In this document: positions 6,132-19,244 of the stretch, in pieces
Layout: every line of letters starts with the position of its first letter
Position numbering within the stretch: position 1 is the stretch's first letter
Assembly: GCF_003704095.1 (NCBI RefSeq)
Contig: NW_020846357.1
Span: 682,001-746,000 of the forward strand
Direction: 5' to 3'
Source: Pocillopora damicornis
Lineage: Eukaryota
Length of the DNA stretch: 64,000 nt
Notes under the pieces: model-generated
Databases searched by the model: none
What the model was told of the DNA's origin: nothing
Seen by the model: the letters and a program-made list of their open reading frames with translations, nothing else
Translations under genes and position numbers: made by a program

Positions 6132-6422
6132 CATTATTTCCCATTTTACAAAATTAACAAAAATATTATTTGATTAAAGAAACAATCATAATGAAACTAG
6201 ATCAAATTTGTCTTTGCTGCCTCTAGGATTCTTCGATCATCGTTAACGACCTGCAAGAAAAGTTTTAAAGTTAATCGCATTATTAGAATAGAACTTATTC
6301 TCTTGCGGTCATTCTTTTCCAAGTTTTTCTTTCTTTCTTTGAGCTTCAAGTAAATTTACCAAATAGTATTGTGATTAATTATACCTTATTCCTTTAGGTA
6401 AACTGTTATTTCTTTTTTTCTC

Positions 6423-9400
6423 CTAATTCCTGCACACATCAGAGCAACGTTTCATTTTAGCCAAGGGCTTTGCGGCGCTGCATTTTTCATCCGGGACAAT
6501 CTGTCCATTTGCTACGTAGATGCAATCAACACGAGGCTGGGAAACCATGCCTAGGAGAGAATATTTTCAAATAAGTATTCTTTTCAATATTCAGTTCATA
6601 TGAGCATAATCCCCAAAGTGGCACATGTAAAGACCGACAGTTATACCTAGAGTGAGGTAGAACTATGCGAGAAGGGGAGTAAGTTTCTAAAAAATTTGTG
6701 GTGCTGCGTCGGTGGGGGTATTATGAACTGAGTTGATAGTGTAACTTGACCGCCGTGTCAGGCGTCAGCCCTTTTTTAGAGCGAACACGACGAAGGGCGA
6801 ACGCTCGAAACGTGAGCTTTTGAAACTCTTTACATGGGTCAATTTTAAATATCAATTCTGTTGATAAATACAGAACTATGCAAGCAAAGACAGACAAAGA
6901 GGATGGCCATTAAATGCCCTCAGTTAAAATCCACTTATTTCAAATTAATTTGTATTGTCGGAGAGGGGTCTGATATCTGATGAGCTGAGTACAAAGAGAA
7001 GATAACGAGAGCAAGACACTTGATGATATTAGTAAATGTGTGAACAAATATTGGTGGCGGTGATAATGACGATGACGAGAATAATAATGATGATGATCAT
7101 ACCAAAATCACTTACTGGTGAAGGCGTAAACGTAGTTATTATTTGACTTTCCCACTCCTTCCCAACAACCTTGCAGATTAAAACCATCCTTATCGTAGGT
7201 TTTGTAGCCTTCGTCGCCCGACCAGCATTCTCCGTAGAACTGGACTCCGAAGACATCGTAATGCTTGCTCAAAGCATCCTCAGCACATTTCTTTACCGTT
7301 TTACTCATGTGGTACCAGTCAATGCCGTTACGAAAATTTGCAACCAATTTTTCTAACGGTCGCTCCCCGATGTGTTTGTCCATGAAACAACCGATCGGAA
7401 AGTAACTCATATCCGAACCTGAAAGTTCGAGAATAAAACAAATAAAAGTTGTTGTTGAGTATCATTTAAATCTGAAACTGAATTTGAGCATTTAACTTTA
7501 ACCTAGGGATAGGTAAAGCAATCTTTGTTTGGGTTGGTGTCAGCCTTAAAATGTGTCAATGCTGATCAGAGAAATGTCTGACTTTTAGGGTTTTCTTCCA
7601 CCCCTCGTTAGCTCCACCCATACCTTCTTAGTCTCTCCCTTCCTCCTCTCCATGCAACCTGTGTAAGCTCCTTCTCTTCTTCCCTAGTCTCTCTCTTATC
7701 CTCCTCTTTCTCTCACCTTCTCAAACTCCACGCCCTACCTCCTCCTCTTTTAGATTAGTCTCACCCTTACTCCTCTATGTCCAACCATTCCATTCGCTCT
7801 GACGAATGGCAAACGCTAGAAACGTCAGCTTTTAAAATCTTTACGGCCAGTTTTACGTTCTCAACTCAGTTGATAGTACTAAATACCCTGTTACACTCCC
7901 ACCGATGCAGCACCAGTTTCTTTAGAAACTAACCCTCTTTATCCATGTATCTTTAACCTCTGCTTTTCCACCTTCCTTTTTCTTCCTTTTTCTTCCGTTT
8001 TCTTCCTTTTTCTTCCTTTTCCTTCCTTTTTCTTCCTTTTTCTTTCTTCTCCTCCTTATCCTTCCCCTTTCTCCTATTATATACTTCTTTACATGCCCCC
8101 CTTCCCGCTCCTTCTCCTAGATATACCTCTCCCTCTTCCTCCACCACTTTCTTCCCTTCTGTTTTCTTTCTTTCTTTCTCCTCATTCTTCTCCTCTTCTC
8201 CAGCTCCCTCTCCTTTACTTCTTTCGTCGTCCTCTCAAAGCTGTTACTCCTTCTTTTCCCATTCTCCATTCGGTTCTTACTCCTTCCTCTTTTCTTCCAT
8301 CCCCTCCTCTCCCTTCTCTCTCCCTTCCTCCCCTATTCCCCCTTGTTACTCCCATCAAACGAAACGAAGATGCCTACCTCCACAGCTGGCACAAGGATAC
8401 TGAACTTGCCATTTGTAACAGGGCACATTATTGCATGAAGTTTGTGAAGATGGCTTCTCAGTACAATGATCTTCTGGCAAGGCAAGCCAGGAGCCATTAG
8501 CAAGCTTCCTCTTACATTCCACCAGACGTGTTTTAGTGCCATTACCACCACAAGGTACCGAGCACTGAAAACATAGTGACGACAATAATATATCGCGTGG
8601 AAATCGAAAGTTGTGAAACATATGGTTTTGAGGCCAGTAGGACCCCTATGAAATGGATCATGGGTATCTGTAAAACTCAGAAAACCGTGAACACCAAAGA
8701 TAAATAAGAAACGTTTTGTGTTTCAAGAAAAAAGCTACTCCAGGATCACAAAGTGATAATTAATTTGTATATCTTACCCTCAACTTAGCTTAGATCACAA
8801 CTGACCTTTCAGCATAAAAGGAAAATGTTCGCGGTTTTCTGGGTTTCACGGTTAAACTACTCCGGCTACCAACGAATAAGTATCTTTAATGTCAACTCCG
8901 GATTTTGCATTTCTAGTGTTCTGATTGGTTCATTCAACTCCGGTTATCAGCTCGTACTCTAAGTCACCTTTTATGGAAATGCATTTAGCCAACTGTTGCA
9001 GAGCTGAAAAAGGTTCCAAATATCCAAACGTGCAGAATTTATTTGATATCAATAAAAAAATAATAAATAAAAAAAATTCATTCGCAAGCTTGTTAAATAC
9101 GAGATTGGCCATAGCAAACTCGGTACTATGAGCTCGTTAAACAATTGTTAAATATTACGATAGTTTCTCTAAAAATCATATTTTCTGAGCACTTATTCGA
9201 TAATTTCGGCGGGAACCTAAGAACTTAATAGATTTAAAATAATTGCCTTTACGAGCCCCAGAATCCTATTCCTCTCGAGAAGGCACAATGAACAATCTCA
9301 CCAATAAGAGCATTCACTGATATTATTTAAAGCCTGGTATGCGCATTCGTTGTTTCTTACCTGTGTCCATTCTCCAGTAACCCATTGAGGCATACAATCT

Positions 9401-12400
9401 ATATTGTTGCAGGGTTTGTAACTTTCTGGTTTTGACAAATTGGTGCAACTAGAATCTGGTAGAATTTTGGTGTACTTCTGTGTCATGACTTGTGCGCATG
9501 TCAGATTTCTGTGCTGCTGACCACCTCCACACAATTCGGAGCATTGACTCCAGGCTCCCAACTTATATCTGCGTGAATTGTAAGAGAACAATTATAATAA
9601 AAAAACAAGGCTAAACTTAAAACTAAAACCAAAGTTTGGAGATTTTGCGTTATACTTTGAATAGCCTTTATCAAACGATTGAGGCGACTAAAAGCTTGCA
9701 TTTATCTTGAAGTGTGTCAAAGACGTTTACCCATGTTAACGCTAACTGTTTAATCATAGTATCACTCGTTGTATTGTTGCGAGTTAATCCCGAGAATTAG
9801 TTTGATAGGCGCTAAACTCTTCAAAGTTCTACGAACATAAGAGAACAACACTTTGTTATCATAAAAACACAAGAAGGCGAAATACGTCTTCTCTTATTTA
9901 GGATGGCTTCTCGCTCAAGCTTTGCGCACCACAGTATTTTCAGGTTTAAGAGTCATACTTACTCCTTCGGACAAGGGGCCAGGTTACAGAACTTGGACTC
10001 CACTGGTTTAGTGTTCTTGTCACAATAATCAGAAGAGACCTCACTTGCGTCATCCTCACGGTGGCACGTGACTTTAATATGCTGAACACCTAATAGCAAA
10101 TGGAATTGGCGTTTTACACACTTCATGCGTTATGCTTATTTGCACACGCCTCTATTTTACATCAGGCGTTAATCACCGAAGTTCAGCGACTTTGAAGTTG
10201 AGGAACTAGCTTTTGTCGGTTTGGAAGGAAAACTTAGTTCCACTCGTCGACAGGACGGGCGTGTTTCCACGCAGCTGATTTCAGGAATTGTCTGCTTAAG
10301 GCCGTATAAACGAAGTGGTTCTTTTCAATAGACAGACTTAGTTCTGTCACTTTTTTCCGAAAATGGTACTCCGAGTGTCCAAATTTTAAAATTCTAAACC
10401 GACACACGTTTCACTCTTTTATGAGTAATTTCCGCTGCCTTCTTGACCCCGACGTGTTTAGCAACCTTATATTACTTGTATATCTTTTAAAATGTCTACC
10501 TCCGGCACATGTGGTACTGCATTCGCCGTTGATTATTTGTTTCCATTTGAAAGTTGTGCTTTTTCCATTTCCAGGGATATAATAGCTATAAGATATACCC
10601 GGATTGCCATGTCTTCCAGGATGAACGTACTGTGGCAAAATCAAGAAAACATAGTTAAATTGTTTGTACATGCAGTGGAGAGAGAGAAACAAAAAAAACG
10701 CGGCTGGAGGTTGGTAAGCGGATATATTTCTAGATGTGAAATTATATGTCAAGGTTAAAATTTTGTTTACTTAGTTATTACATAGTCGATATGTAGCGGT
10801 GGCCACCTTAACCACACTGAAAACACGTAGATATAATGCATTAAACAAGACATGGCATAGTAAGCAATATTTTGATTTTTCTTCCCGCTTACTTCAGTTA
10901 AATCAAAAGCCAAACCAACTCTCGAACCCAGATCTCTCAGTCCACAGATCAACGCTGCATACAGTACGTGAGGTATACTTAAACACCGTTTTTAAAAAAA
11001 ATGATAAAATCAAATAATTACCATCGCATCTAGGTCTTCATTTGTCGGTCCTCTGATAGTAATTCGCTCAGCATCAATATACTTTTTCATGTAGTGGTAA
11101 ATGAACGTGCCTGCGGCCGCGTAAGTATTCGTCCAGCTTGGGACTGGGACGTAGTAATCGACTGCTTTGACTGCTTTCGTTGACTTTATACCTGGAAATA
11201 CAAGGTACGGAAAAATTGTGAATGTTCGTGATCCAAAGGGAACTTAGAGACTGAGCTTTGTGAAATTTAAACCAAAGTAAAGTAAGAGAGATCTTCTAAA
11301 TACGTGTTATTTATTGTAAGAAAAGCCAAAAAAGATAAGTGATGAATTGACAGGGGTTTTCAATGGGGTTCGGAAAGTTTCAGTGTTTAGATCTCAGGCC
11401 GAGGCCCAACTCCGTCGAAAACTTTACCGAACATTACTTATCCCCCTTCTACCGGGATGGAGGAGGGGGGAGATATTATTCTTCGTACTCAGGAAGTTGT
11501 AAGATTTGTTCATCTCCTGAATCTGGACATTTGTCGCTCCTTTTGGAATGGTGAACATGATGTCTCCGTTGTTGCGCCCTGCAAAGTATAGAAATACGGA
11601 AGAAGTAAAAACAAACGAATGTTTATCAGTGCCTGTCTGTCAAACGCACATACGTGTATAATTATGTGTTAGGGTCGTAGCCATTATTTTAACATTATAC
11701 ATTCCTCTCAGTGTGAGCCCGTTAATTTCTTTTTCCAACACCATAACCCCTCAATCTTCCGCTTGTTCTATCAAAGATCCTCCACCCGTTGGGAAAAAAT
11801 ATCAAGACATGATGCGATCAAAGAGTGTGGCGCACGATTTGAGTTTCTTCCCTGACAATAGAAGTTTTTAAATTCCAAAATACGATAAAGAAATAGCATC
11901 ACGAATGCTTCATTTAATATTCCCAATGAAACGGAATGAAGATGAGAAGGGAGGTATAAATATGTTTAAATCTGAGTCCCAGTTTTGACATCCAGTGTTT
12001 TAAGAAAATCTATTCTAAACTATTCAGAAAATCTGACTCCAATTATTACCATATACTCGATAGTCCTTTGTGTACATCCCCCCAACCAAAACACATGATC
12101 CACCGTCTCCTCCACAATTCAAACATCGATCCAATACTTTGCCAGATCTCAGCTTCTTATCACAACCGACCGGCTGAAAAATAACAGACAAGGAAGTATT
12201 TCATCCGACTGTCAAGATAATTGGCGAAAGAAATTTAAATGTTTGCGTTCATGCATTCATCTATTTCTTCATTTATAGGGAAATTTAAGTAAATAGTCAG
12301 GTGGTCACTGGGTAAGTTAATCAGTCAGTCAGCCAGTTACTCCCTCACTCAGTGAGCTGGCCGGTCGGTCAATCAGTCAGTCAGTCAGTCGGTCAGTTAG

Positions 12401-15400
12401 TCGGTCAATTAGTCGGTTAGCTAGTTAGTTGGTCAATCGGTCAGTCAGTTGGTCAGTCAGCCAGTCAAGTACTCACCACACATTTTCCTTCAATGCAGAC
12501 ATCAAACACATTTTTATTCCCCTCACAACGAGTCCCATCCGTGACGTCGCCAAAATAATATCCTCTACCCCCGGTCACGCAAGCCAAAGTACACTTGCTA
12601 CTGCCTGATTAGGAATAAGAGAAATGACGAGTTCATCAATTCCTTGCAATGCTGTACTTTTATAGAAATTCAACACAAAGTGTTTTAAAAGAAAAAAAAG
12701 GGACGTGCTGGATTCAGCAGCGTCAACTCAGTGCCAGGTTTTCTAGAATTCTCCATTGCAAAGTATATATTGCAATGTCAACTAAAGTTTCCCCAAGCAA
12801 ATTTAATGTTATTACCTCCCAAAAAGTGAGGACGGTATTTCGTACTGTCCGTGTTGTGTGCTTCACATTGCTGATGACGAAAACGATCAACACTGCACTC
12901 CTGAGGGGGAAAACATACAAGCAGTTGTAAATTCATGCTTTCCTCTTCAAGTCAACCAATGATTTAGCTAACTTGCATTTTGTAAACATGTCAAAAAACA
13001 TCAGTTTAAGTTTAGCTGAACTGTAAAATCTTTCAATGAAACACTCGAGGTTGAGGTGAGACGACCCCCACACGTCGTATTTTGTTGATATCCCTTATCA
13101 TCAGCTTTAACCAACGGTCAAGGCAATGAAATACGTCTCCATTAAATACACAAATAATTTTCCTTAACTGAACAACGAACCTGAGTGTTACACATTTCAA
13201 AGTGACCTTTGCTGGATCCCTCGCACGCTTTTCCGTAGAATTTAGGTCTTCAGGAAAAAGGAAGAAAGACGTGTTCATTTAGTTTAAAATTCTGGATTTT
13301 AGGACAACATTGGTGTTAAGATAAGTACGATGCTTACACTGGGTTGTTGCACTGTCGACTTCGGTATCTCACCCCTCCCCCACAAGTTCGTGTACACGCT
13401 TCATACGATCCCCAAGAGCCCCACCCACCGTCAATTGGCCCTGGTACTCTTGGTTCATGTCTGCAATGTCCGGCCAGGCAGATCTAAAGAAAAAAAAGAT
13501 TAAAAACTTAAGAAAACCGCCTATTCTTTCTTGAGAACTCTTAAAGTTTTCTAAAATCGTATTTAGCAGTTTTACCTTCCTGATGCCACATAACGTTCCC
13601 TCAGCGATTGGTGAAGATCTAGTGAAGCAGCTTCCTCCTTTTCCTTCACAGAAAAGTGCTCCGCAGCTTTCCTAAGAAAAACATTTATCAACTTTCTTTA
13701 ATGTCTGAGAGTGCACAGTCTAATTCATGGACAAACTCATCCCCTGAAGCAAAGCCCATGTAATTGACAAGATCTTACAGACTATGATATCTGAGTTCAT
13801 ATAAAATGGACGAAGCATTTTCGCAATACTCAAGTCAATTAAAAAATTTCATCAAATTTATCTGATGAAAGAATTACTCTACTAGCGCTACTCGTGAATA
13901 CATCTATCATCTCATATCCAACGCATGTACACGGAAGAGATGCTGAATATACCATAGTGGCCAGTCAAGAGCTCATAGCCTAACAGATAACTCCTCAGTG
14001 TTCTTGAATGGGTCAAAGCTGGTACCTTCTGTGATACGTGACGTCCATGACGTCACTGAGAGAAACTCGGCAAGAAAGTTACTTCTCATCTCACACTTAG
14101 CGCAAACTAACACAGGACAAACGACCATGGAATCGGCTTTACAATCGCTACCAATCTTAACTGTAGAACTAAACTATACAATTCTTTAGCTTCTCTTAAG
14201 AAGCTTTTTCTATGGCGTACTTACTCTAAGTGTTGGACCGCACACAGTATAGTCTTTCCCATAGGCCATTTGGCACTGTTCGTCAGCTGAAAAGAGAGGA
14301 GGAAGACTGGGGAGAGGAAGCTGTGCCGGTGGTTGGTTGTGTAAGCATTTGTGTAACCTGGGAGTAAAGATGCAATTTGAGTATCGAGATTGAAACTTAC
14401 CCTACACAAGATTCCTAATCTTAATCTTTCTGGATAACAAGTAAATTAAGAGGTAGTTTCCTCTTGCTTTCCTGTTTTCAAGACAAACTCAAGTAAGGTA
14501 AAACTGGGGCTTCGACGGGATTCGAATCTGTGCTTCCCAGATACCACCAACTGGGCAACTAAGGCACACGTCGGAAGTGGGAAATATTCTTCCTTGACTT
14601 GTTTATTAAAGTTCAGATGTTTTGCACTTCGTGAGCAGATCTAGAGACAAGGAGGAACAACAATAAATACTTACGTAAACCTCTCTTTCAGTTTCTTCAT
14701 GCTGCAAGGGGACCAATGGAATGCGTTCGGGCCATGAGCCTGTTGCCTGTGCATGATAGCTCCCATCCTGTGGCAGTCCCCATTATCATGCCCTACACCA
14801 ATGCTATGGGAGATAAAAACAGAATCAATCCAAGGTACTGAATATCCCGTGAAGACAGATCTTTTCTCGTATAGGCTTGATGCCTATGTATGATAGTTCC
14901 TATCTCGTGGCAGCTTCCGTTATCATGCCCTACACCGATGCTACAGGAAATAAAAACAGAATCAATTTTGGTTACTGAATATTTGATAAAGACACAGCTC
15001 TTTTCTTGCAAGTTTCATTTAAATTTTCATTCAAACTTTTTTCGCTGAGTTGCCCGCATATATTGTGAAATGTTCGTCACACAAATTGTTGATACCATGC
15101 ATTTTTGGCGGAGAAAGATAGATTCCACCGAAGCATATTTCGTGAAAAGAAATTGGTTATTTTCGGGAAAACCGGAGATTTCAGGAAAAGGCTATTCGTA
15201 AGATTATGTTTGTAATGAGTGCCACATACTAATTCAGAACCATTTGGCGACAAATTAAAGTAATTATCGATGATTTGAGATAAGTTTTAGCTAAAAATTT
15301 GAATACGAAAAAAAAGAATAACAGACCAAGAGAACTGGTGATACCTTTGCACTGAGACATACACCTACAATAACGATTCAGTGTTAGTTCAAATTATGTC

Positions 15401-18400
15401 TTCGGGTTAAGTTCCATGTTCATGAGAGAGAACCAATTAACAAGGCAGAAACAGTATTACAAATAAGAATTACTTGTGAGCCACTTCGTGCGTCACAGTG
15501 TATGCTGCACTGAGTCCAATAGCCACGTTTATGCTCACGCCAGGGTATTTGCCACAAAGTCCCATATTTGCGACCCCTGTTAGGAGATAGCAACGTTAAA
15601 TATCAATAAAATTTCAAATTAAAATGCAACTATCAGCAGTGTCTCATTCTCGAAGTGCTTCTTAGTCCAACGATTCCTAGTCGCTCTGGTACTTCGCTTT
15701 TGTACATTTGAAAGTAGGTGAGAAAACCACAGAGGCCGAAGAATATTCAACGAGTCGAGGCAATGGCATCGACCACAAACAAATGCAATCCCATAATTAT
15801 ACTCAATTTGGTCTGGTAGTTGAACCTAGACCATAGTAGTGGGAGAGGGGGGAGGGGAGGAATTTCTTTGATGCGCCTGTGAGGTCTCTATTACTTAAAA
15901 AAGAAGCAAGCAGATATTTGTATTGAAAACAAAAAACAAAAAACAAAAAAAACATACACAAGTAAATTAATTTGCCAATAAGTGCACGTGAACTGAGTTT
16001 TAAGCTCATCCTTACCATTGATGGAGCAGCTGTTCAGACCGCATACGTTCCTGTTTCCAACAAAAGATAAAATGTTTTGTCATAAATGAACGAATGGTTA
16101 AAGTTTACTCTAACTTACATGTGTTATCATGTTTAGTTATTTTGTGTGCCAACCCCATTTTGGTGCAATGAAACCGAAAATAGAGTATTTTAAAGAACTG
16201 AAAGAAAAAAAGCGCTCGAAAACGTAACTGATTAAGTCGCCATTTTTTTTTTAACTTTGCATTGGATTGGTTCAGAGGGTGTCGCGTGCTTTATAGACCA
16301 ATCACATGGCGCATTTAAATAAAAACGATTCAATACAGATTTTATATGAATGTCCACTTGAAAATGCTCATGATGATACTTACCTTGTAAGCATGGCAGC
16401 AATATCATAATGTTCTTGTTTACCATTTGCAGGGTTCCTATCGAAGGCCCAATTTTTGAATTTCCCATGGTACGATCCTGCAGAGCGTATGTTGTTTGCT
16501 GCAAAGTCCAAGTCCGGCTATTCGTAAAGACAGGAAAAAACAAACAAACAAAACCAATTAAAAAAATTATAAATTTTATTGATGTATAAATTGCAGGTTT
16601 TGATAACTCCCACTTACGTCGAACCCTTCGATGAGGAAGACCTTCGTGAGAACCCAGGACACGGGCATTCCAATGGACTTATCTTTGTAAAGCCGATTGA
16701 CCTATATGAAAATTGAACCAAGAAAAGTTTGAAAAAAAAATGTTAAAAATGGAAAGTCAAACAGCTTCGCATTTACCTAGTTAACCTGATCGTTTGGGCG
16801 GCGGAACGGATCGAGGGCTCTGGTCCCAATGGTGTCTATGACTTGTGTCGATAAACATGGCTTCGATTATTGCATTACCTATATTTTTTCCGGAGGCAGT
16901 TTAATTTGAAATCAGGAAAAGAATAATTCAATTGGGAAGCCAACAGGATCGTAGATTCGAGGCTGAGATTGACTAACTAGCACATGGGTAAATTTTAAAT
17001 AATATTGAATTGAATATCCATATTGCCTTGCACGAAATATTTAATTTGGCAAAAATAAAAACAACTCTTTATTTATCTATGTTTCACTAAGAACTGAAAG
17101 TCCATCTTATTATTACTAGATTAGCAATGTTCAGGAGGTAGTCAAGTGTGCCGTTGCCATAGAAATCGCAGGTTGTTTTGTCAGCGGTAAGCATGGCCTC
17201 GATATATATATTGCCATTGTAAATGTTGTCACGTTTAGTTCTACTCTTGGGAGTCTCGGTCTGATCAACTTGGATCTCCTCTTGTTCTTGCGTCTTCCCT
17301 GGTAATTAGGGAAAAATGAAGCACCGTTGGAAATCTTAAAATGATCTCTAAATTGTTGGCAAAAAACTGACGACTGCGCAAGGGCAGAGGTGGTGAGGGG
17401 AGGGGGGGGGAAGGCGATCACCTGGTATGGAGAGGAAAATTTACTTAAAAAGATTGGCATTAACTGTTCTGACTCGCTTTGAGTAAATAAAAACAGGACT
17501 GTGGTGTGACCCCCCCCCCCCTGCTAATTCACAATGCCTTTGTGATCACAAGAAATCGGAAAGAAAGAAAAAGTGAACAATGGAAATGCTGGTTTTCCAA
17601 GTGGAGTAATGTTATGATATAAGTTGGTTTATATCCAGGGTCTTGTTTGTAAAATAAATTAGAAATACCTTTATTATGAGTCGACATAAGGTTTTGGTTT
17701 AGCATATCTCGAATGCTTCGTTTGGAGATAACATGGTACTCGGATCCTTGTAATGCCGCTCGCCGATGAAGATGACTTGACAGAGGCTCCAAATGGTACA
17801 GATGGCCACCACTCACTAAAGCACCACTCTACAAGATTTACAATTTTTAATAACTTTTTGTGGACCGCTTTCAAGAGATGAGCCAAGCTCATTAGAGACT
17901 TACAGCATCATTCCCACTAATATCTGTTAATAGCCAAGCCAAAGACGCAAATTCTGCCTAGGCGGACTTCTTTTTTCCGCAAATCACTCACTAAACCTCT
18001 CGCTCTGAGTTAGTTATAATTATTCCTTTGAGACTGGATACTTTCAGAATAAAAATAGCCTTGCTCTGCGGCCATTTAAACAACACCTATATTAAGCCTG
18101 TAGTCTCTTTCCTTCACTCTCTATTGCTTGGAATTAAAAACTCTGTACTTTAAATCTCAAAAAAAAAAAAAAAAAAAATGACGCCGAAATATCTTACGAC
18201 GGTGACGTATTTTCAGATTAGCATAACTTACCAGCTGACCCTTATCATCAGTCTCCCGAACAGCTACATGAGAATTTGGATCCGAAGTTACGTGACCCTC
18301 ATAAAATATTCCATGTGGACGGTGGATCTCTTTGACAACCATACCGTCTCTTTTTCGCCTCTTTATGGGCAGCCCTGTGTCGGGAATGACGTCATCATTT

Positions 18401-19244
18401 TGTTGCAACGTCAGTGCAAAGTCTTTTCCAAATGCTGACAGTCTGTAGTCCTGCTTTGTGGAAAATGGACTTCGCTTGCCTCTGTGTTTATAGATTCGTA
18501 CGACATCGTATTCTGGAACTAAGGATAGACACTAATGTTAAAATTATTGCTTTACTAACGTCAAAATTCGCTGGTTGGGAAAGAAAAGCGTCATGTGATG
18601 CATCATGTGTGCATCATGTCATCATCACGAAAGCATCATGTGAGACACCTGACCTGATTCGTGGGAATCTGTATGTAAATATCTTCTTAATTCATCATTT
18701 GATAGAAAAGTATGGAGGTCTTGTCTTGCAGCGGCTCTCCTCTGTAAAACAGCACAAATTATAGCTATCAAATCATCAGTTATATAGTAATTTTTCGGAG
18801 AGTCAAATGCATTCCCGAGCACCAATTCAAAGCGAAAAGTATATTCTGAAATAGTTACAGCTGTTGAGTGTGTATGGAAACAAGAAAAATCGTTTCAATT
18901 TAGAAGAGGAATTTGGCTGTCGGCCTTCCAACGAAAGTATCGTTATTTGCAGTTTGGTTGTTAGGTGTTAAGAGATTGTTCGAAAGTAAAGTATAATTAA
19001 ACTTAAATTTGGGAAAACTCTTAATGAGAGAATCAACCTTAAACGAAAAACCGATTTTTCTTGGTTGACTGAATGCTCCTTTAATTTTTCTCTCTGTGAG
19101 GTCCCTTTGAGGTAGACTGCTTTAATTTCATGAAGCTTATTTCCCTTGTTGTAAATACGTTCCCTGAGATTATTACATTTACGTCCTACTCACCTGGTAG
19201 AGGAAGAGGGTTAGATGCAGAACAAGTGAGAAAAATCGACTCAT
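6423..19244 (-). CDS. ADAMTS-like secreted metalloprotease with thrombospondin repeats, 25 coding exons, ~1124 aa
   Basis: Exons in transcription order: 19194-19244, 18654-18741, 18232-18518, 17669-17828, 17117-17298, 16618-16701, 16384-16517, 16016-16050, 15474-15576, 14675-14803, 14225-14357, 13576-13671, 13338-13483, 13181-13247, 12816-12900, 12477-12604, 12050-12173, 11489-11578, 11022-11191, 10500-10629, 9963-10089, 9361-9568, 8378-8564, 7116-7418, 6423-6550. All GT-AG, phases consistent, 3375 nt total. Signal peptide, prodomain ending RTKR, HEVAHNIGVGHD zinc motif, IMH Met-turn, disintegrin-like domain, TSP1 ([17 protein letters not shown]), Cys-rich domain, spacer, 4 further TSP1 repeats and a WSC-like module. 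Confidence 0.93.
6684..6870. repeat. Two fragments of an interspersed repeat (Penelope/retrozyme-like family): minus-strand tail plus plus-strand degenerate head
   Basis: 6684-6756 is roughly the reverse complement of 7845-7930; 6788-6870 (cgacgaagggcgaacgctcgaaacgtgagctttt...) matches 7799-7875. Confidence 0.6.
7116..7418 (-). CDS. WSC-like module exon of the ADAMTS gene (303 nt, phase 1-1)
   Basis: IGCFMD...RPL...NFRNGIDW...VKKCA...[13 protein letters not shown]...GCWEGVG...NYVY resembles WSC-type Cys modules; acceptor ttcag at 7419-7423, donor gtaag at 7111-7115. Confidence 0.75.
7796..7930 (+). repeat. Interspersed repeat headed by a minimal type I hammerhead-ribozyme-like motif
   Basis: gct-CTGACGA-a-tggc-aaac-gcta-GAAA-CGTC-agc: core boxes, 4-bp stem II and 3-bp stem I. 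Same family at 6788, 38270, 49415 and 56365. Confidence 0.6.
7940..8350. repeat. C/T-rich low-complexity tract including (TTTTCTTCCT)n-like units; similar tract at 7590-7790
   Basis: Almost pure pyrimidine on the + strand inside an ADAMTS intron. Confidence 0.85.
12320..12468. repeat. Degenerate tetranucleotide microsatellite (AGTC/GGTC/AGTT)n
   Basis: cagtcagtcagtcagtcggtcagttagtcggtc... directly visible, intronic. Confidence 0.85.
14505..14566 (-). mobile_element. tRNA-derived SINE head fragment
   Basis: Minus strand reads gccttagttgcccagttggt...gattcgaatcccgtcgaagcccc (A-box/B-box-like) with no complete cloverleaf. Confidence 0.5.
14804..14968 (-). repeat. Partial tandem duplication of the acceptor and 5' half of ADAMTS exon 10
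   Basis: attgattctgtttttatttcctgtag|CATCGGTGTAGGGCATGATAAC (acceptor 14941) vs attgattctgtttttatctcccatag|CATTGGTGTAGGGCATGATAAT (acceptor 14804); offset 137 nt. Confidence 0.85.

What the first reader, a model, noticed from the sequence alone, without database searches (positions are those of the whole stretch)
6423..8564. WSC-like domain inserted as a symmetric cassette exon inside the last TSP1 repeat of an ADAMTS
Seen: exon 23 ends ...[14 protein letters not shown] (first half of a TSP1 repeat) and exon 25 begins [28 protein letters not shown]...C (second half). Between them lies a 303-nt phase 1-1 exon encoding a complete WSC-like module. Skipping it restores an in-frame, contiguous TSP1 repeat. 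Known: canonical ADAMTS C-termini carry PLAC, CUB or GON-1 modules; WSC modules are putative carbohydrate binders. Inference: exon shuffling produced a protease with a possibly switchable glycan-targeting module.
Basis: partly seen in the sequence, partly recalled or inferred. Interest (0 to 1): 0.7.

Follow-up and report, generated by a model that had tools for sequence, protein, structure and literature searches.

The report
Module nested inside coral protease repeat
A secreted coral protease carries a small WSC-like module spliced into the middle of its last thrombospondin repeat; the arrangement is shared with sea anemones, was present in every transcript examined rather than switchable, and likely helps the enzyme bind its matrix target.

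Summary
In a 25-exon ADAMTS gene of a stony coral, a 303-nt phase 1-1 exon lies between the two halves of the last TSP1 repeat. RNA contigs from 4 of 4 runs splice it to the last coding exon. It has the WSC/PAN fold (Z 12.4 to Kremen1) but four cysteines, not eight. Cutting it out restores six cysteines at TSP1 spacing. The 'switchable' reading is not supported: 58 of 58 stored proteins with both half-repeats keep the module and none skips it; raw reads were not available, so rare skipping is not excluded. The nesting is old: all stony-coral orthologues have it and Nematostella has two modules at the same site. The module is a mobile class 1-1 exon with about 100 matches in the genome, and other cnidarian ADAMTS carry it as an ordinary tail. 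Most likely an exon landed in a pre-existing intron and became a fixed exosite; glycan binding is untested. A real, apparently undescribed architecture made by a known mechanism.

The parts
6423..19244 (-). ADAMTS gene, 25 coding exons, 1124 aa: signal peptide, prodomain, reprolysin domain with intact zinc motif, Cys-rich, TSP1, spacer, three intact TSP1 repeats, then the split repeat
   Evidence: model built against orthologues; one stop; Pfam architecture of the orthologue P0003
8378..8564 (-). exon 23: most of the third C-terminal TSP1 repeat plus the first half of the last one; phase 0-1
8378..8417 (-). N-terminal half of the split TSP1 repeat (Cys 1 and 2, only two residues apart; O-fucosylation consensus lost)
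7116..7418 (-). exon 24: 303-nt phase 1-1 exon, four-cysteine WSC-like (PAN-fold) module
6423..6550 (-). coding part of exon 25: C-terminal half of the split TSP1 repeat (Cys 3 to 6) and stop
10090..10499 (-). phase 1 intron at the same place inside the first C-terminal TSP1 repeat of this gene: the empty version of the insertion site
   Evidence: predicted splice sites; repeat spacing 3,10,13,11,4
6251..6384 (-). 134-nt intron in the 3' untranslated region, 38 nt after the stop
   Evidence: joint in 4 of 4 runs; ends read

Best explanation
The gene encodes a secreted ADAMTS protease whose last thrombospondin repeat is interrupted by a WSC-like module that was included in every transcript examined, likely inserted long ago by exon shuffling and likely serving as a fixed binding site that targets the enzyme. 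Shown: the exon structure, splicing of the module into the mRNA, conservation in stony corals and sea anemones, cysteine spacing of the two halves. Predicted: the WSC/PAN fold of the module. Inferred: (1) a mobile class 1-1 exon recombined into a phase 1 intron that the repeat already had, before stony corals and sea anemones split; (2) the two halves still fold as one TSP1 domain, tied across the insert by two disulfides, with the module looped out, which the PAN fold allows because its first and last strands are neighbours; (3) the host repeat then drifted (shortened first cysteine pair, no O-fucose site) and inclusion became the rule; (4) the module works as an exosite for an extracellular-matrix ligand, protein about as likely as glycan.
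For: Splicing: 7116>6550 in 4 of 4 runs from 4 studies; one 2912-nt contig runs from exon 23 through exon 24 into exon 25 unbroken. Constancy: of 60 stored proteins with the first half, 58 have module plus second half, 1 is a partial model ending after its modules, 1 reads into the intron, 0 skip. Age: Stylophora, Oculina, Desmophyllum, Montipora, Acropora; Nematostella has two modules between the same halves, Actinostola two after the first half. These genes form one clade, 9 of 9 rows, 100/98, and their nested modules one clade, 99/96. Same phase 1-1 flanks in two other coral genomes (L015, L016). Mobile module: 102 matches in the genome; best acceptor in phase 1 in 31 of 31 single-exon copies scored, a good phase 1 donor in 19; found on astacin, F5/8, ZP and EGF proteins too. 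Pre-existing intron: the first C-terminal repeat of this gene is split in phase 1 at the same place and has the same 10,13,11 spacing. Fold: pLDDT 94-98 over the module, 82-92 over the halves, halves with the strand pattern of the intact repeats; Z 12.4, rmsd 1.8 A, 85 residues to Kremen1. Cys 3-6 kept in 57 of 58; Group 1 repeats pair C1:C5 and C2:C6 (PMC13597200, passages).
Against: Contact between the halves was not seen directly: coordinates of the model were not available, and no fold match spanned both halves. The joined repeat scores below all 111 intact ones, and in the anemones the glycines after Cys 2 are not kept. Skipping was tested only on assembled contigs, which drop rare forms; 71 loose-end rows and 367 pieces were not shown, and in 2 of 4 runs the contig breaks at the exon 25 acceptor (explained by intron-containing contigs, but not proven so). 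Part of the protein set was found with the module as query. No orthologue without the module was found, so the order of events is inferred. No evidence on the ligand.
Confidence: 0.78

Rival explanations
1. Regulated cassette exon: the module is skipped in some tissue, stage or stress, giving a protease with a plain TSP1 tail.
For: The exon is symmetric and skipping is in frame; the C2-C3 distance of 10 residues is restored exactly in 11 of 11 orthologues tested; contigs cannot show rare forms.
Against: 0 of 58 proteins with both halves skip it; the two annotated Oculina isoforms both keep it; no loose end at the exon 25 acceptor among the rows shown, and the depths of the spliced joints (41.2, 11.9, 23.3, 16.2) about equal those of exon 25 (41.2, 11.9, 18.6, 18.3). 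Symmetry is a property of the whole module family, so it needs no splicing explanation.
Confidence: 0.08
2. Same present-day protein, other history: the ancestor already ended in one or two WSC-like modules, as its sister ADAMTS do, and the exon order was reshuffled so that the second half-repeat came to lie behind them.
For: The sister clade (10 rows, 98/95) carries the module as a tail; medusozoan and several anthozoan ones end in two modules, and the anemone orthologues have two nested.
Against: The nested modules do not group with the tail modules in the domain tree, though that tree has 96 columns and is unresolved at depth; the tail module of a paralogue in this genome is split by an intron, unlike the nested one (L109).
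Confidence: 0.25
3. The halves no longer form one TSP1 domain: the first half is a short cysteine loop and the second a separate small cap.
For: C-x2-C occurs in 0 of 111 intact repeats; the score comes mostly from the second half (15.7 of 20.4 bits).
Against: The first half is the best conserved segment (75% mean identity in 9 orthologues against 51-65% for the others); both halves are modelled with confidence and with strand pairing; all six cysteines are kept and the coral modules have an even number, four.
Confidence: 0.15

Closest known systems
ADAMTS metalloproteases (M12B) with C-terminal ancillary modules (PLAC, CUB, GON-1; names recalled)
   Same: Prodomain, reprolysin domain with zinc motif, Cys-rich, TSP1, spacer, TSP1 array.
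   Different: The extra module is WSC-like and sits inside the last repeat, not after it.
Other cnidarian ADAMTS with a WSC-like tail (Actinia P0067, Nematostella P0080, Rhopilema P0065, Paramuricea P0011 and others)
   Same: Same module family on the same enzyme family; sister clade in the tree.
   Different: One or two modules follow a complete repeat and end the protein.
WSC domains of human Kremen1 (5FWS) and yeast Wsc1 (7PZ2)
   Same: PAN-like fold, Z 12.4 and 9.9; Pfam PF01822 match.
   Different: Four cysteines instead of eight, no CGG motif; ligand unknown.
Class 1-1 module shuffling in animal extracellular proteins
   Same: Single symmetric phase 1-1 exon, extracellular, found on many unrelated proteins (PMC8001218, passages).
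   Different: The module landed inside another module. Insertions into introns were under 10% of domain gains in PMC2926785 (passages); the passages seen do not count insertions inside a domain.
Hydra metalloprotease-MAM-WSC proteins with TSP1 repeats; Nematostella trypsin-WSC
   Same: Published cases of WSC on cnidarian secreted proteases (PMC4820225; 10.1101/645952; passages).
   Different: Other protease families; no nesting described in the passages seen.

Membership tests
ADAMTS | Reprolysin domain with HExxHxxGxxHD zinc motif | tested here: met
   motif present in the 25-exon model; Pfam reprolysin in orthologues
ADAMTS | Prodomain, Cys-rich, central TSP1, spacer, C-terminal TSP1 repeats; no transmembrane tail | tested here: met
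ADAMTS | Proteolytic activity and secretion | not testable with these tools
   signal peptide judged by eye from the hydrophobic first exon
WSC domain (PF01822) | Pfam gathering score | tested here: inconclusive
   26.9 bits against 27.8, E 5.5e-6, profile 3-62 of 82
WSC domain (PF01822) | PAN/apple-type fold, five strands and one helix | tested here: met
   predicted model; best of 48,161 chains is Kremen1, Z 12.4, rmsd 1.8 A over 85 residues
WSC domain (PF01822) | Eight conserved cysteines, four disulfides, CGG motif | tested here: not met
   four invariant cysteines in 74 aligned sequences, GVG in place of CGG; definition from PMC9024836 passages. Filed as WSC-like, not canonical WSC.
WSC domain (PF01822) | Binding of glycan or protein | not testable with these tools
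   both are on record for other WSC domains; single yeast WSC has no glycan pocket
TSP1 repeat (split one) | Six cysteines at TSP1 spacing | tested here: met
   2,10,13,11-12,3 in 11 of 11 tested; first and last gaps one shorter than the mode
TSP1 repeat (split one) | O-fucosylation consensus C1-X-X-(S/T)-C2 and WxxW | tested here: not met
   C-x2-C in all orthologues; consensus present in 90 of 111 intact repeats
TSP1 repeat (split one) | Three-stranded fold formed by both halves | tested here: inconclusive
   strand pattern and confidence fit; no fold match spanned both halves
Alternative cassette exon | Length divisible by three, same phase on both sides | tested here: met
   303 nt, phase 1-1
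Alternative cassette exon | Skip isoform exists | tested here: inconclusive
   0 of 58 proteins, none in displayed RNA rows; contigs only, so rare forms cannot be excluded
Class 1-1 mobile module | Phase 1 introns at both boundaries in many copies, many host proteins | tested here: met
   31 of 31 acceptors, 19 of 31 good donors in phase 1, 1 in phase 0, 11 weak or terminal; own ad hoc splice score on 29 loci chosen from 102 matches; hosts

The most novel reading that the evidence does not exclude
The phase 1 intron in the middle of this TSP1 repeat is an expansion slot: the repeat folds around one (corals) or two (anemones) inserted WSC-like modules, which hexacorals use as an exchangeable, possibly glycan-reading targeting head on a matrix protease, with exon skipping able to remove it in some cell states.
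Probability: 0.15. Interest if true: 0.72.

Novelty: new variant of a known kind. Interest (0 to 1): 0.45.

Why it matters
It is a clean natural case of one extracellular module nested inside another and kept since stony corals and sea anemones parted (several hundred million years, recalled), which shows that a TSP1 repeat can carry one or two folded domains in the loop after its second cysteine. It also points to a four-cysteine WSC-like module family with about 100 matches in this genome and 726 representatives in the library that Pfam barely detects and that tails many cnidarian ADAMTS. Nematostella has the orthologue, so the role of the module in matrix remodelling can be tested.

Tried and rejected
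Skip isoform: looked for in RNA contigs, cluster members and 73 metagenome loci (that scan used patterns from the module itself, so it could not find skip forms); none found. P0052 stops after the first half but reads like intron read-through when held against the genomic locus L015. Complex prediction of the two halves as separate chains gave no answer (score 0.20, mark 0.34, alignment not used) and is not counted either way. The first fold with 16 sequences left the module unresolved (pLDDT 61.5); its Foldseek search found only TSP1 proteins. Sequence search of the PDB with the module found nothing significant. The protein atlas held neither sequence tried. The domain tree did not resolve the donor of the module. 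Four of 27 proteins were dropped from the enzyme tree because the zinc motif pattern did not match, and no cnidarian ADAMTS without the module was in it. Earlier findings of the scan: nothing. Literature: nine searches gave no paper on a WSC module in or on a cnidarian ADAMTS; PMC5446238 and PMC12549020 have no occurrence of WSC in the main text; their figures and supplements were not seen and may show such architectures. Artefact of assembly or gene prediction: rejected, as transcript contigs of several species carry the same order.

Full report
Observation. On the minus strand exon 23 spans 8564-8378, exon 24 7418-7116 and exon 25 starts at 6550 with its stop at 6423. All have AG/GT ends, exon 24 is 303 nt and phase 1-1, and both the inclusion and the skip form read in frame. 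Built against orthologues, the gene has 25 coding exons and 1124 residues with an intact zinc motif; some upstream boundaries are predicted only. The closest named relative is from Stylophora pistillata (86% over the module), so the organism is likely a pocilloporid stony coral.

The module. Pfam WSC matches at 26.9 bits, just under its cut-off of 27.8. With 74 aligned sequences AlphaFold2 models the Stylophora tail at mean pLDDT 85.6, 94-98 over the module. Against 48,161 solved chains the best matches are WSC domains: Kremen1 Z 12.4, rmsd 1.8 A over 85 residues; yeast Wsc1 Z 9.9; PAN domains follow at Z 6 and below. Only four cysteines are invariant, against eight and a CGG motif in canonical WSC (PMC9024836, passages). 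It is WSC-like, a reduced variant. In this fold the first and last strands are neighbours (PMC5014086, passages), which suits insertion into a loop (inference).

The host repeat. With the module cut out in silico, the halves give six cysteines spaced 2,10,13,11-12,3 in 11 of 11 sequences; 107 of 111 intact repeats from other ADAMTS-type proteins have the same 10 between the second and third cysteine. The joined window sequence scores 20.4 bits on a profile of those repeats; 200 shuffles reach at most 10.9, and the training repeats at least 25.9. So it is a real but degenerate repeat: C-x2-C occurs in 0 of 111 intact repeats, and the O-fucosylation consensus found in 90 of 111 is lost (consensus from PMC13597200, passages). 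The last four cysteines are kept in 57 of 58 proteins. If the repeat pairs as Group 1 (C1:C5, C2:C6, C3:C4), two disulfides cross the insert; this is inferred. The model gives the halves pLDDT 82-92 and the strand pattern of the intact repeats, but no fold match spanned both halves.

Splicing. Four RNA runs of four studies, held as contigs, were laid on 6200-7600 (4 of 22 runs listed; one is RNA by guess). The exon 24 to 25 joint stands in 4 of 4. In run X1 a 2912-nt contig carries exon 23 letters as its loose end and goes on unbroken through exons 24 and 25; in the other three the contig also leaves the window at the exon 24 acceptor. No loose end at the exon 25 acceptor is among the rows shown, but 71 rows and 367 pieces were hidden, and contigs drop rare forms. 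In two runs the contig breaks at that acceptor, where an intron-containing contig branches. Among 284 stored proteins, 60 have the first half; 58 go on through the module to the second half (44 from Logan or JGI contigs, 14 NCBI models, by the source columns), one is a partial model, one reads into the intron, none skips. Many of these are near-copies (19 distinct pairs of halves) and some were found with the module as query, but and the cluster lists did not depend on it. Inclusion is the rule; rare skipping is not excluded.

Age and origin. The nesting is in Stylophora, Oculina, Desmophyllum, Montipora and Acropora, with the same phase 1-1 flanks in two other coral genomes. Nematostella has two modules between the same halves; the partial Actinostola model has two after the first half. 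On the enzyme and ancillary region these genes are one clade (9 rows, 100/98), sister to ten cnidarian ADAMTS that carry the module as a tail (98/95), against four bilaterian rows (23 of 27 rows kept). The coral module groups with the second anemone module (99/96); the donor is unresolved. The module has 102 matches in this genome and 726 representatives in the library, on astacin, F5/8, ZP and EGF proteins among others. In 31 single-exon copies from 29 loci, the best acceptor is in phase 1 in all 31; 19 have a good phase 1 donor, 1 phase 0, 11 weak or none, five of these ending in a stop (own simple score, not checked against RNA). The first C-terminal repeat of the same gene is split by a phase 1 intron at the same place and shares the 10,13,11 spacing. 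This is the pattern of class 1-1 shuffling (PMC8001218, passages) into an intron that was already there; such insertions were under 10% of domain gains in PMC2926785 (passages). A reshuffle from an ancestor already tailed with the module cannot be excluded.

How it likely works. ADAMTS C-terminal modules act as exosites for substrates and matrix (recalled). The nested module is as conserved as the intact repeats (65% against 58-60% mean identity in 9 orthologues), so it is under selection. WSC domains bind protein in Kremen1 and glucan in some fungal proteins, where several domains act together and a single one has no pocket. I put a fixed targeting role at about 0.65 and, within it, glycan and protein ligand near even. 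None of this is tested. Presence in Nematostella and in Desmophyllum (both without algal symbionts, recalled) argues against a role special to symbiont glycans.

Novelty. Nine paper searches (listings, then passages of twelve papers by term search) gave no description of this architecture. The survey of cnidarian TSP1 proteins (PMC5446238) and the Nematostella matrisome paper (PMC12549020) do not mention WSC in the main text; figures and supplements were not seen. WSC on other cnidarian proteases is in print; PMC4890752 and PMC4877951 mention it only in other proteins. The protein sequences are in public databases under automatic names. Verdict: a real, old, apparently undescribed domain-in-domain architecture made by a known mechanism; the switch that made it exciting is unsupported. 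Interest 0.45.

Noticed in passing
window 6384-6251 (-): An intron in the 3' untranslated region, 38 nt after the stop, spliced in 4 of 4 runs; closer than the 50-55 nt usually needed to trigger nonsense-mediated decay (recalled).
   Followed up: partly
window 6670-6850: A very abundant short repeat in the last coding intron (summed contig depth in the thousands), probably a small mobile element.
   Followed up: no
window 6551-7115 (-): Contigs that retain this intron occur in two runs (depth 2.9 and 8.7); unspliced RNA or DNA is the simplest reading.
   Followed up: no
P0090, P0062: The sea anemone orthologues carry a second, different WSC subtype in front of the shared module; it passes the Pfam cut-off in Nematostella (40.8 bits).
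   Followed up: partly
L109 (G000:C3577:896300-899200): A paralogous ADAMTS-type tail: complete TSP1 repeat, phase 1 intron, then a WSC-like module that is itself split by an intron.
   Followed up: partly
G000:C2706, C4228, C1390, C3577, C4317: Clusters of many WSC-like exons on single contigs, more than 15 on C2706, suggesting poly-WSC proteins; one library protein has 38 matched stretches (P0095).
   Followed up: no
window 24100-32900 (-): At least two tandem lipase genes; three exons match Pfam Lipase.
   Followed up: partly
window 22526-21882 (-): An uninterrupted reading frame matching Tctex-1 (dynein light chain) just upstream of the ADAMTS.
   Followed up: partly
window about 4960-4000 (-): A long open frame with an N-terminal hydrophobic stretch, downstream of the ADAMTS; no Pfam match at E 0.01 over 4900-4001.
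   Followed up: partly
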